From an uncultured bacterium (GTDB lineage Bacteria > Patescibacteriota > Minisyncoccia > UBA6257 > 2-01-FULL-56-20): a DNA stretch of 64,000 nt. The notes under the pieces were generated by a model, which had not been told where the DNA came from, ran no database searches, and saw nothing but the letters and a program-made list of their open reading frames with translations. Location of the stretch: the NCBI GenBank assembly GCA_963719425.1, contig OY970382.1, positions 7,888-71,887 on the forward strand. Direction: 5' to 3'. Shown piece after piece: positions 32,369 to 39,109 of the stretch. Within the stretch, counting starts at the first letter, position 1. The number at the start of each line of letters is the position of its first letter. Both the position numbers and the translations under genes were made by a program.

Positions 32369-35300
32369 TTGTGCGCAATGCAAAAATTCTCTTCAACAAA
32401 AGATTTTTCAAAATCAAAACCTCTCATCGCACCGTTCAATCTGAACGAAGTGCAGTTGAAGTCGTACCAGTGGTTTTTGGAAAAAGGGTTGTACGAGCTT
32501 CTCCACGAAATCTCTCCGATTCGCGACCACACGGGAAAAGAATTTGAATTGTATTTCTCCCATTATCGTTTTGACGAACCGAAGTATGATGAGGCAACAG
32601 CGCGGTACAAAGAAACAACCTTTGAGGCGCCCCTCCGGTGCATATTGAAGCTCGTGAATAAACGGACGGGAAAGGTGCACGAGCAGGAGGTGTACTTCGG
32701 CGATTTCCCCATTATGACGACGAGGGGGACGTTCATCGTGAACGGCGTGGAGCGGGTCGTCGTTTCGCAACTTGTCCGTTCGGCGGGTGTGTACTTTACG
32801 GCAACGCCGTATCGCGGACGGAAGCTTTTCGGTGCGAAGATCATCCCTTCGCGCGGCGCGTGGCTTGAATTTGAAAGCGATGCGAGCGGCGAAATCGGCG
32901 TGAAGATTGACCGCCGGCGGAAGGTTCCGGTGACCGACATCCTCCGCATTTTCGGCATGGGCAACGAGGAAGTGGAAAAGGCGTTTACAAACGTGGATTG
33001 CGGGACGGTGCGCTACCTCGTGGCGACACTCAAGAAAGACATTGCGAAGAACGCGGCGGAATCATATGTGGAGATTTACCGTCGCCTCCGACCGGGCGAT
33101 CCGGCAAGCGCCGAGACCGCAAAAGGCCTTATTGACGCGATGTTCCAACGTGTCGATCGCTACGACCTTTCCGAGGTCGGCCGCTACAAGATGAATCAGC
33201 GTCTTGGATTGGATCGTAAGAAAGAAAGCAAACTTTTGGACAAGGAAGACCTTGTCGGCATCGTGAAGGAAATCATTGCGCTCAATAATGATCCGGACGC
33301 GGAAGAAGATGATATTGACCACTTGGGTAACCGTCGCCTGAAGGCGGTCGGCGAACTCTTGCAGGGGCGGTTGCGCATCGGCCTAGCGCGGCTCCGAAGA
33401 ATTATCCAGGACCGGATGTCCACCGAAGACAAAGAAAATTTGATGCCGGCGCAGCTCGTGAATTTCCGCCCGATCGCCGCGGTCATCAAGGAATTTTTCG
33501 CGTCATCACAGCTTTCGCAGTTTATGGATCAGGTGAATCCGCTTGCCGAGTTGGAGCACAAGCGGAGGATATCGGCCTTGGGTCCTGGTGGCCTCACGCG
33601 CGAGCGCGCGAGTTTTGAAGTGCGCGACGTACACCGCTCGCACTACGGCCGCATCTGTCCGATCCAGACGCCGGAGGGCTCCAACATTGGCTTGATCAAC
33701 TATCTCGCAAGCTACACGCGCATCAACGATTTTGGGTTTCTGGAGGCGCCGTACGCAAAGGTGGTGGGCGGCCTCGTGACGAAAGAAATTGTGTGGCTAG
33801 ATGCTTCGGAAGAGGAAAAATACAAGATCACGCACGCTGGCACGCCAAGGGACGAAAACGGGCGGCTCCAAGGCGCGACCGTGGAGGCGCGCATCAAAGG
33901 GGAGCCGGGGACGTGCGCGCCAGAGGAGATTGATTTGATTGATGTGGCACCCCATGAATTTGTGTCCGTCGCGACCGCGCTCATTCCGTTTCTTCAGCAC
34001 GACGACGCGAATCGGGCGCTCATGGGTTCCAACATGCAGCGGCAGGCCGTCGTTTCCGTAAGGCCCGATGCGCCCTACGTTGCCACGGGCGAGGAAGAAA
34101 AGGTGGCGCTTGATTCGGGATATGTGGTGGTTGCGGAAGAGAACGGGACAGTACTTGAAGCCGATGGCACGCACATCAAAATGAAATATGGGAGGACAAC
34201 CAAGAACTATCTTCTTGAAAAGTTTAAACGATCAAACCAGTTCACCTGCATTTCGCAACGGCCGCTCGTCGTCGCGGGTGCGAAGGCGAAGAAAGGAGAA
34301 ATCCTTGCCGACGGCCCATCTATTGCGAACGGCGTCCTTGCACTCGGCCAGAATCTGCTCGTTGCCTTCGTGTCGTGGGAAGGCGCGAATTTTGAAGATG
34401 CCATTATCCTTTCCGAGCGGGTGGTCCGCGACGACCTTTTCACCTCCATCCACATTGACAGCTATGAGCACGACGTCCGCGATACGAAGCTTGGCCCCGA
34501 GGTTACAACCTACGATATTCCGAACGTTTCGGAAGATAAGTTAAGGAATCTTGACGAAGAGGGGATCATCCGCATCGGCGCCGAGGTCAAAGCAGGCGAC
34601 ATTTTGGTCGGCAAAATTTCTCCGAAGGGAGAATCGGAGCTCACGTCCGAGGAGCGGCTGTTGCGCGCGATTTTCGGCGAGAAGGCGCGCGACGTGAAGG
34701 ACACGTCGCTTACGCTCCCGCACGGGAAGATCGGCCGCGTGGTGAATGTGAAGATTTTTGACCGCGAGCGCGGCGACAAATTGGAACCGGGCATCATCCG
34801 CCGGATCCAGGTGGAAATTGCGGAACTGCGCAAAGTGCAGGCAGGCGACAAGCTTGCCGGTCGCCACGGCAATAAAGGCGTCATCTCACAGGTGCGCGCC
34901 GTGGAAGACATGCCGTATTTGGAAGATGGCACACCGGTGGATATCGTCTTGAATCCTCTGGGCGTCGTCTCGCGCATGAACTTGGGACAAATTTTGGAGA
35001 CCCATCTCGGCTGGGCGGCGTCAAAATTGGGCTATCGCGCAATCACGCCGGGGTTGGATTCCGCGACCGAAGAACAGATCCGCGCGGAACTGCGTGCAGC
35101 GGGACTCCCCGAAGACGGCAAAGCGAGGCTTTATGACGGCCGCACCGGCTTGCCGTTTGAGAACCGCGTGACGGTCGGGCAGATTTACATGATGAAACTG
35201 AACCATCTCGTGGAGGACAAGGCGCACATGAGGTCCATCGGCCCGTATTCGCTCATCACGCAGCAGCCGTTGGGCGGAAAGGCGCAGTTCGGCGGCCAGC

Positions 35301-38300: not shown

Positions 38301-39109
38301 AGCTCACGATGCGCACGTTCCACGCGGGAGGCGTGGCGGGTGCCGATATAACGCATGGTCTGCCGCGCGTGGAAGAAATCTTTGAAGCGCGCTCGCCCAA
38401 GGGCCGCGCGGTGCTTGCGCCGTTTGATGGGACGGTGCAAAACGTAGAGGACAAAGGTCCGCAGAAGATCATCCGCTTCATTTCGGAGGCCAAGAAGGCG
38501 AAAGCACAGGAGATCGCTGTGCCGCGGGGCACCGTCCTCTATGTCAAGGCGGGCGATAAAATCAAGAAGGGCGACCAGCTTTCCGAGGGGAATCTGGACC
38601 TCCACGAGCTCTACGAGCACAGGGGCGTGCTTGAGGTCGCGCGCTATATCGTGAATGAGGTGCAAAAGATCTATCTTTCCGAGGGTGCCACCATTAACAA
38701 CAAGCACATTGAGATGATCGTGCGTCAGATGTTCTCGCGCGTGAAGATCCGCGACGCCGGGGACGCGCCGGACTTCGTGATGGGCGAGATTGCCGAGAAG
38801 TCAAAGTTCTTGGAAGTGAACCGCGAGATCAGGAAGCAGGGCGGCAGTCCCGCGAAGGCGGACGAGGTGCTTTTGGGCATCACGCGCATCGCGCTCTCGT
38901 CAGAGAGTTTCCTTTCGGCAGCGTCGTTCCAGGACACGGCGCGCGTGCTTGTGAAGGCCGCCATTGAGGCAAAAGTGGATCGGCTCCGCGGCCTAAAGGA
39001 GAACGTCATCATCGGGCGCCTTATTCCCGCGGGTGCCAAGGAGTCGGTGCGCACGGTACTCCACGAAACCGAAGCGGAGGAGGAACCAGCAATCGGAGTC
39101 CAATCATAA
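32369..39109 (+). CDS. rpoBC: DNA-directed RNA polymerase beta-beta' fusion (rpoB-rpoC in one 2246-aa ORF)
   Basis: rpoB motifs ([13 protein letters not shown]; rifampicin cluster) run without a stop into rpoC motifs ([23 protein letters not shown] zinc finger; [12 protein letters not shown] catalytic loop); the junction ...[33 protein letters not shown] has no Met. Confidence 0.85.
   Translation: [2246 protein letters not shown]

What the first reader, a model, noticed from the sequence alone, without database searches (positions are those of the whole stretch)
32369..39109. rpoB and rpoC fused into one 2246-aa ORF
Beta-subunit motifs run without a stop or start codon into beta-prime motifs. 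The junction ...[37 protein letters not shown] has no Met. The zinc-binding [16 protein letters not shown] and the catalytic NADFDGD follow downstream. Such fusions are known in Helicobacter and Wolbachia but are rare. The downstream order (rpsF-ssb-rplK) is also unlike the canonical rplKAJL-rpoBC operon.
Basis: seen in the sequence. Interest (0 to 1): 0.55.

Follow-up and report, generated by a model that had tools for sequence, protein, structure and literature searches.

The report
Natural rpoB–rpoC fusion in Paceibacteria
The two large subunits of bacterial RNA polymerase are encoded here as one continuous protein, and this is a real, inherited trait of a whole group of ultra-small (CPR/Patescibacteria) bacteria, but it is a new example of a kind of fusion already known from Helicobacter and Wolbachia, not a new kind of thing.

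Summary
Window 32369..39109 (+) is one stop-free frame holding a complete beta subunit followed by a complete beta-prime. There is no stop, frameshift or Met at the junction. The true start is probably the ATG at 32378, giving 2243 aa instead of 2246.

It is not a sequencing artefact. All 120 best database homologues (71-97% identity) carry both subunits in one protein. They come from many independent NCBI, JGI, ENA and Logan assemblies. Their connector is almost constant in length.

A second search from the most divergent member again returned only fused proteins. The neighbouring gene order is shared by fused relatives.

The genome is a Paceibacteria/Minisyncoccia member of the CPR. Its closest split relatives have rpoB and rpoC separated by as little as TAA plus one base. 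A rough tree puts the fused sequences in one clade among split CPR lineages, apart from Helicobacter. That suggests one small deletion in the clade's ancestor.

Beta-beta-prime tethering is established in Helicobacter, Wolinella and Wolbachia. An artificial E. coli fusion assembles into a working enzyme. One 2024 paper mentions a fusion in the CPR lineage Adlerbacteria. Verdict: new member of a known kind, modest interest.

The parts
32378..39109 (+). Fused rpoBC gene, 2243 codons plus a TAA stop. The mechanical ORF begins at the TTG at 32369.
   Evidence: The start is inferred from the N-termini of homologues. Stop TAA at 39107-39109.
32378..35509 (+). Beta (RpoB) portion, about 1045-1052 aa, with no large lineage-specific insertions. 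It ends with the conserved C-terminal helix [17 protein letters not shown].
   Evidence: Pfam Rpb2 domains 1-7 at residues 25-1047. PDB beta chains align up to ORF residue ~1055.
35510..35545 (+). Connector [12 protein letters not shown] (ORF residues 1048-1059). It is the only poorly conserved stretch, its length is nearly invariant, and it contains no stop, no Met and no spacer.
   Evidence: Only 4 of 120 homologues have an insertion here.
35546..39106 (+). Beta-prime (RpoC) portion, about 1187 aa. It starts at [22 protein letters not shown], which corresponds to roughly residue 5 onward of B. subtilis beta-prime. The ancestral initiator Met and the first few residues are missing.
   Evidence: Pfam Rpb1 domains 1-5 at residues 1059-2170. 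PDB beta-prime chains align from ORF residue ~1058 to their residue 5.
35705..35773 (+). Beta-prime N-terminal zinc-binding motif, CxC...CxxC.
37001..37021 (+). Catalytic NADFDGD motif of beta-prime.
30312..32330 (+). Upstream neighbours conserved in the fused clade: FtsW/RodA (30312..31358) and YceG/MltG (31362..32330).
   Evidence: Pfam. Same order in L081.
39149..40199 (+). Downstream neighbours conserved in the fused clade: rpsF (39149..39589) and ssb (39699..40199).
   Evidence: Pfam. Same order in L081 and L001.
40324..40749 (+). rplK (L11), standing alone. It is followed by tmk and not by rplA.
   Evidence: Pfam. L1, L10, L7/L12 and NusG queries give no hit in the window.

Best explanation
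This is a genuine, vertically inherited gene fusion. In the common ancestor of a Paceibacteria (Minisyncoccia, CPR) subclade, rpoB and rpoC lay adjacent or nearly abutting. A small deletion or frameshift removed the rpoB stop codon and the rpoC start, leaving one gene. The product is inferred to be a single ~250-kDa beta::beta-prime chain that assembles with alpha2 and sigma into a normal RNA polymerase.

The C-terminus of beta and the N-terminus of beta-prime are tolerant of tethering, and here they are joined by a short connector of about 12-13 residues. The likely effects are strictly equal amounts of the two catalytic subunits and one assembly step fewer. That could plausibly help very small cells holding few polymerase molecules.

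What is shown: the continuous frame, complete domains and motifs, clade-wide conservation, constrained connector length, conserved gene order, and split sister lineages. What is inferred: that the protein stays uncleaved, the assembly and stoichiometry benefit, and the single-deletion origin.
For: A continuous frame holds all beta and beta-prime Pfam domains and catalytic motifs.

All 120 of the best homologues carry both subunits. Of these, 113 are full length at 2240-2322 aa and the rest are shorter (1894-2038 aa, some labelled partial). They come from independent NCBI, JGI, ENA and Logan assemblies, on contigs up to 913 kb. A second search from the most divergent member again gave 120 of 120 fused, at 68-81% identity.

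Connector length is nearly invariant and no Met occurs at the junction. Beta homology ends at residue ~1055 and beta-prime homology begins at ~1058, so there is no spacer.

In the closest split relative, L082, the genes are separated by TAA plus 1 nt. Its beta tail (8 aa) plus beta-prime head (6 aa) total 14 aa, against 13 aa for the fused connector.

A rough NJ tree puts the fused sequences in one clade nested among split CPR lineages, away from Helicobacter and the other fused clusters. The block FtsW/RodA-YceG-rpoBC-rpsF-ssb is conserved at 71% protein identity.

Precedents exist. [quoted passage not shown] See also PMC9696931 and PMC7483510.
Against: There is no protein-level evidence for this lineage, so cleavage after translation cannot be excluded.

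The structural fit of the short connector was not verified. The AlphaFold model of a 640-aa slice was too poor to use (mean pLDDT 50.6).

The tree is a simple distance tree without support values.

The proposed selective advantage is untested. Separating the Helicobacter subunits is reported to be tolerated (from memory, Dailidiene et al. 2007, not checked here), so the fusion may be nearly neutral.
Confidence: 0.88

Rival explanations
1. Sequencing, assembly or gene-calling artefact. A real stop codon or frameshift between rpoB and rpoC was lost in this assembly, and the genes are actually separate.
For: MAG assemblies do carry indel errors. In many bacteria rpoB and rpoC lie in the same frame separated by a single stop (many loci), so one miscalled base could mimic a fusion.
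Against: The same fused frame occurs in 120 of 120 and again 120 of 120 homologues from different projects and assemblers. The connector has no remnant of an intergenic spacer, no Met and a constrained length. L001 and L081 DNA differ at many junction positions yet stay in frame.
Confidence: 0.01
2. The gene is fused but two proteins are made, because beta-prime is also translated separately from an internal start near the junction. The window has an SD-like GGAAGGA followed by in-frame TTG and GTG codons.
For: The window sequence at 35534-35570 contains GGAAGGA and then TTG (Leu of ALKI) and GTG (Val of SVAS) in frame.
Against: None of these elements is conserved. L001 has CCACCGCGAC, CTG and GTT at the corresponding positions, and L081 has GCGCGAAAAG, CTA and GTC. 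No homologue has a Met in the junction. A start at those codons would also remove conserved beta-prime residues.

Caveat: a Parcubacteria subgroup often lacks the anti-SD motif (PMC9297842). The absence of an SD is therefore weak evidence; the absence of a conserved start codon is the stronger point.
Confidence: 0.03
3. The fused precursor is cleaved after translation at the connector, yielding ordinary separate beta and beta-prime.
For: The connector is the least conserved stretch. It carries a fairly conserved basic pair (R-K/R) that could in principle be a protease site.
Against: There is no intein or protease domain, and the connector is only about 12 residues. [quoted passage not shown] The strict length constraint fits a structural tether better than a disposable linker.
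Confidence: 0.06
4. The fused gene was acquired horizontally from another fused lineage, such as Helicobacteraceae, Wolbachia or Mycoplasma wenyonii, and did not arise within the CPR.
For: Fused rpoBC exists in several unrelated lineages.
Against: The fused Paceibacteria sequences nest among split CPR sequences and not with other fused clusters. The Helicobacter connector is 15 aa longer and unrelated in sequence. Flanking synteny is partly shared with a split CPR relative, which also has FtsW/RodA upstream.
Confidence: 0.02

Closest known systems
Tethered beta-beta-prime of Helicobacter and Wolinella (Zakharova et al. 1998, 1999; Gupta 2006, PMC1557499)
   Same: It has one ORF with beta N-terminal and beta-prime C-terminal and all catalytic motifs intact. 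It is a clade-wide inherited trait usable as a rare-genomic-change marker. L071 (H. muridarum) was confirmed fused here, with a 2891-aa stop-free frame.
   Different: The origin is independent. The proteins are much larger, about 2890 aa against 2243 aa. The connector is longer and unrelated: the anchor-to-anchor span is 133 aa against 118 aa. The host is a proteobacterium with a normal-sized genome.
Wolbachia rpoB/rpoC fusion (Lane & Darst 2010, as cited in PMC7483510)
   Same: It is a natural fusion in a reduced-genome, host-dependent bacterium.
   Different: It is an alphaproteobacterial lineage and was not examined directly here. Its origin is presumably independent.
Candidatus Adlerbacteria fused beta-beta-prime, mentioned in one sentence of PMC11515920 (Protein Sci 2024)
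   Same: It is a CPR/Parcubacteria lineage with beta and beta-prime in one polypeptide, and may be the same evolutionary event.
   Different: No member of the clade found here carries an Adlerbacteria label; the labels seen are Liptonbacteria, Ryanbacteria, Paceibacterota and Minisyncoccia. Identity of the two events is therefore untested. That paper did not analyse the fusion.
Engineered E. coli beta::beta-prime fusion (Severinov et al. 1997, as cited in PMC1750930)
   Same: It shows that covalently joining the beta C-terminus to the beta-prime N-terminus is compatible with assembly and activity.
   Different: It is artificial. The natural connector here is essentially the residual termini, with no added linker.

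Membership tests
Natural RpoB-RpoC (beta::beta-prime) fusion proteins | A single uninterrupted reading frame across complete rpoB and rpoC, with beta first | tested here: met
Natural RpoB-RpoC (beta::beta-prime) fusion proteins | Catalytic and structural motifs of both subunits intact, so it is not a pseudogene | tested here: met
   [14 protein letters not shown], the zinc motif and NADFDGD are present. All 11 Pfam domains score above their cut-offs.
Natural RpoB-RpoC (beta::beta-prime) fusion proteins | The fusion is reproduced in independent related genomes, so it is not an assembly error | tested here: met
   120 of 120 and again 120 of 120 homologues are fused. L001 and L081 DNA are in frame.
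Natural RpoB-RpoC (beta::beta-prime) fusion proteins | A single ~250-kDa polypeptide present in the purified enzyme | not testable with these tools
   This needs proteomics or biochemistry. It is shown only for Helicobacter, in the literature.
Helicobacteraceae rpoBC fusion (same evolutionary event) | Common ancestry of the fusion junction with Helicobacter and Wolinella | tested here: not met
   The NJ tree places the clade among split CPR lineages. The connectors differ in length and sequence.
Canonical rplKAJL-rpoBC operon | rplJ-rplL immediately upstream of rpoB, with rplK-rplA upstream of those | tested here: not met
   Upstream are FtsW/RodA and YceG. rplK lies downstream and alone. rplA, rplJ and rplL were not detected in the window. 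The split CPR relatives L082 and L084 also lack this linkage.
Patescibacteria/CPR, class Minisyncoccia (Paceibacteria) | Closest homologues assigned to the group, and CPR-typical rRNA features | tested here: met
   Source names; taxonomy. The 23S is not preceded by a 16S, and it carries about 1.75 kb of insertions including a group I intron with a LAGLIDADG gene.

The most novel reading that the evidence does not exclude
The fusion is an adaptive, clade-defining innovation of a major Paceibacteria lineage and not a neutral accident. On this reading, an obligate single-chain, near-minimal RNA polymerase catalytic core (2243 aa, connector length under strong constraint) evolved in ultra-small cells to guarantee 1:1 subunit dosage or to replace a lost assembly aid such as omega. 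It would also give a clean rare-genomic-change marker for resolving CPR phylogeny and a natural minimal single-chain polymerase for structural work.
Probability: 0.25. Interest if true: 0.45.

Novelty: new member of a known kind. Interest (0 to 1): 0.3.

Why it matters
It shows that covalent tethering of the two catalytic subunits of bacterial RNA polymerase arose independently and became fixed in a large group of CPR bacteria.

This provides a simple marker for that clade. It warns annotation and phylogenomic pipelines that treat rpoB and rpoC as separate markers; database names for these proteins alternate between 'beta' and 'beta-prime'. It also offers a naturally compact single-chain polymerase core for structural and biochemical study.

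It does not change what is known about how RNA polymerase works.

Tried and rejected
1. An AlphaFold2 model of a 640-aa slice across the junction, built with 27 homologues, gave mean pLDDT 50.6. It is unusable for judging connector geometry, so no fold search was run.

2. The genome-contig scan with a junction peptide was swamped by universal beta and beta-prime motifs. It returned mostly unrelated bacteria. I reused it as a fused-versus-split panel.

3. The promoter and terminator scan gave counts close to those of shuffled sequence: 10 promoter-like sites against a shuffle mean of 8.6, and 31 terminator-like sites against 20.9 (sd 6.0). No operon boundaries are claimed from it. The best promoter-like site is TTGACT-17-TATAAT at 32113-32141, inside yceG.

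4. The internal-start idea (SD-like GGAAGGA plus TTG/GTG) was rejected because none of the elements is conserved.

5. Literature searches for an analysis of a CPR rpoBC fusion found only the single Adlerbacteria sentence. Its supplement held no usable accession. Zakharova 1999 and Lane & Darst 2010 are not held.

6. No solved structure among the 60 best chains listed spans both halves.

7. Whether Adlerbacteria belongs to this clade could not be established.
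Full report
**1. The observation**

The mechanical ORF list gives one frame, 32369..39109 on the + strand, of 2246 aa starting at a TTG. Its translation has no internal stop.

Pfam places RNA polymerase Rpb2 (beta) domains 1, 2, 3, 45, 6 and 7 at residues 25-1047. Rpb1 (beta-prime) domains 1-5 fall at residues 1059-2170. All score far above their curated cut-offs.

The DNA at 35400-35700 reads through the junction in one frame.

Homologues all start MAKF(T/S)S.K.[9 protein letters not shown]. The true start is therefore most likely the ATG at 32378, giving 2243 aa, the same length as the nearest homologue.

**2. What organism this is**

The window carries a 23S rRNA gene that is not preceded by a 16S gene. 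Its span is 4674 nt against a 2925-nt model. It includes a group I intron with a LAGLIDADG endonuclease gene.

The best homologues of the fused protein are labelled Minisyncoccia, Candidatus Paceibacterota, Liptonbacteria, Ryanbacteria or Patescibacteria group. NCBI places Minisyncoccia in the phylum Minisyncoccota.

So this is a CPR/Patescibacteria genome of the Paceibacteria (Parcubacteria) class.

**3. It is not an artefact**

A search of 5.8 billion proteins returned 120 best hits at 71-97% identity. Every one carries both Rpb2 and Rpb1 domains. Of these, 113 are full length at 2240-2322 aa and the others are shorter (1894-2038 aa, some labelled partial).

They come from NCBI, JGI, ENA and Logan assemblies, on contigs up to 913 kb. 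A second search starting from the most divergent of these (P0120) again gave 120 of 120 fused proteins at 68-81% identity, with only 14 new ones. The family is therefore compact and uniformly fused.

Among 80 genomic loci from GTDB species representatives, only the close relative L001 and Helicobacter muridarum have a stop-free frame across the junction.

**4. Anatomy of the junction**

Across 120 homologues the anchor-to-anchor length is almost constant. Conservation dips only in the roughly 12 residues [12 protein letters not shown] (35510..35545). Only 4 of 120 have an insertion there, and none has a Met.

Against solved structures, beta homology runs to ORF residue ~1055. Beta-prime homology starts at ~1058, aligned to residue 5 of B. 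subtilis beta-prime. There is therefore no added linker: the residual tail of beta is joined directly to the head of beta-prime.

None of the 60 best PDB chains listed spans both halves.

**5. How it probably arose**

The closest split relatives were found through the 50%-identity representative census. They were inspected in their contigs.

In L082, rpoB ends ...NVEIEETKED, followed by TAA, one base, and then ATG for MAKVSNFKSIKLKIASP.... The beta tail (8 aa) plus the beta-prime head (6 aa) total 14 aa, against 13 aa for the fused connector. In L084 the genes are 125 nt apart, and FtsW/RodA lies upstream as in the window.

Other CPR lineages are also split, with a stop, an 11-90-nt spacer and a Met. 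These are the loci labelled Zambryskiibacteriota, Nomurabacteria, Parcubacteria group and Candidatus Minthosoma, another Paceibacterota, and two MAGs labelled Saccharibacteria.

A distance tree of concatenated beta plus beta-prime puts all fused Paceibacteria in one clade on a distinct stem. That clade nests among split CPR lineages. Helicobacter and the other fused clusters fall elsewhere. The tree has no support values and is only indicative.

The simplest reading is a single small deletion or frameshift in an ancestor with abutting genes. This step is inferred.

**6. Gene context**

The order 23S-5S-hypothetical-FtsW/RodA-YceG-rpoBC-rpsF-ssb is shared with L081, whose fused protein is only 71% identical. 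L001 shares rpoBC-rpsF-ssb.

The canonical rplKAJL-rpoBC linkage is absent. rplK sits alone downstream, followed by tmk. L1, L10, L7/L12, NusG and S18 queries do not hit the window.

The split relatives L082 and L084 also lack rplJL upstream. The dissolved operon is therefore a feature of these CPR lineages in general and is not tied to the fusion.

A Parcubacteria subgroup is known to lack uL1 (PMC9297842). The absence of rplA after rplK fits that, but the whole genome was not available to test it.

**7. How it most likely works**

The product is inferred to be one ~250-kDa chain that folds into the usual beta and beta-prime modules and assembles with alpha2 and sigma.

Covalent tethering at exactly these termini is compatible with function. 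[quoted passage not shown] Helicobacteraceae and Wolbachia carry natural fusions (PMC7483510; PMC9696931; PMC1557499).

The consequences, equal dosage and one assembly step fewer, are inferences.

The strong length constraint on the connector suggests it is a fitted tether and not a loose linker.

**8. Rivals**

- Assembly error is excluded by the clade-wide conservation.
- A conserved internal start for beta-prime is unlikely. The SD-like GGAAGGA and the in-frame TTG and GTG of the window are replaced by non-start codons in L001 and L081. No Met occurs in any junction. Because part of Parcubacteria lacks the anti-SD motif, the missing SD carries little weight and the missing start codon carries more.
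- Post-translational cleavage cannot be tested here.
- Horizontal acquisition from another fused lineage is contradicted by the tree and by the unrelated, longer Helicobacter connector.

**9. Novelty**

The kind is well known. The census shows about 25 further representative clusters longer than 2000 aa that match both halves. They include Mycoplasma wenyonii, an Anaerolineaceae MAG and recurrent unnamed clusters. Fusions are therefore uncommon but recurrent.

One paper states in passing that beta and beta-prime are fused in Candidatus Adlerbacteria (PMC11515920). No paper in the held library analyses the CPR fusion.

I therefore rate it a new member of a known kind, with modest interest. It is useful as a clade marker, as an annotation caveat and as a compact single-chain polymerase, but it is not surprising to a specialist.

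**10. What failed**

The AlphaFold model of the junction slice was too poor to use. Promoter and terminator scans were close to shuffled-sequence levels. Key primary papers were not available.

Noticed in passing
window 25055..25530 (inside the 23S rRNA gene, 23728..28401); L081 2399..2493 (inside its 23S, 1023..4302): The 23S rRNA gene carries a ~470-nt insertion whose flanking sequence resembles the helix-45 region (placement from memory, not tested). Inside it is a clean tRNA-Lys(CUU) at 25101..25175 (Rfam 67.9 bits, also called by ARAGORN). 36 nt downstream is a second tRNA-like gene at 25211..25355, which ARAGORN's intron mode calls tRNA-Ala(UGC) with a 70-nt insert. It ends in an encoded CCA.

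The relative L081 has a tRNA-like element at the same relative position, about 1375 nt into its 23S, but it is called differently (a 95-nt 'tRNA-Gly(ACC)'). tRNA-like genes embedded in a 23S intervening sequence could fragment the rRNA when they are processed. I found no description of this in the held literature.
   Followed up: partly
window 26217..27038: A group I intron (RF00028, 26796..27038) lies in the 23S rRNA, with an adjacent LAGLIDADG homing-endonuclease ORF (26217..26771). In total the 23S span carries about 1.75 kb of insertions. This is typical of CPR rRNA genes (PMC9297842).
   Followed up: no
window 22780..28630: The rRNA genes are unlinked. tRNA-Pro(CGG) is followed by 23S and 5S, with no 16S upstream of the 23S in the window.
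   Followed up: no
window 39149..41878: rpsF-ssb is followed by rplK and not by rpsR. The relative L081 has rpsF-ssb-rpsR. rplK is followed by tmk and not by rplA. No S18, L1, L10 or L7/L12 homologue was detected anywhere in the 64-kb window. The missing L1 fits the known uL1-lacking Parcubacteria subgroup, but this was not tested genome-wide.
   Followed up: partly
loci L002-L080: In most of the 78 split genomes of the panel, rpoB and rpoC lie in the same reading frame. In many of them a single stop codon separates the two stop-free stretches. The panel is biased toward such cases by the way tblastn ranked them. Even so, it shows how small a change is needed to create a fusion.
   Followed up: no
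proteins P0131, P0135, P0137, P0133, P0134, P0152: Several other recurrent clusters of fused beta::beta-prime proteins exist in metagenomes, at 41-48% identity to this one, without any source name. One cluster has 21 members of about 2425 aa. Their taxonomy and junctions were not examined. They may mark further independent fusion events.
   Followed up: no
window 41797..41937 / 41189..41878: The mechanical gatB ORF (41797..43356) overlaps the end of tmk by about 80 nt. Pfam GatB_N starts at ORF residue 53, so the real gatB start is probably an internal Met near 41938. This is only an annotation detail.
   Followed up: no
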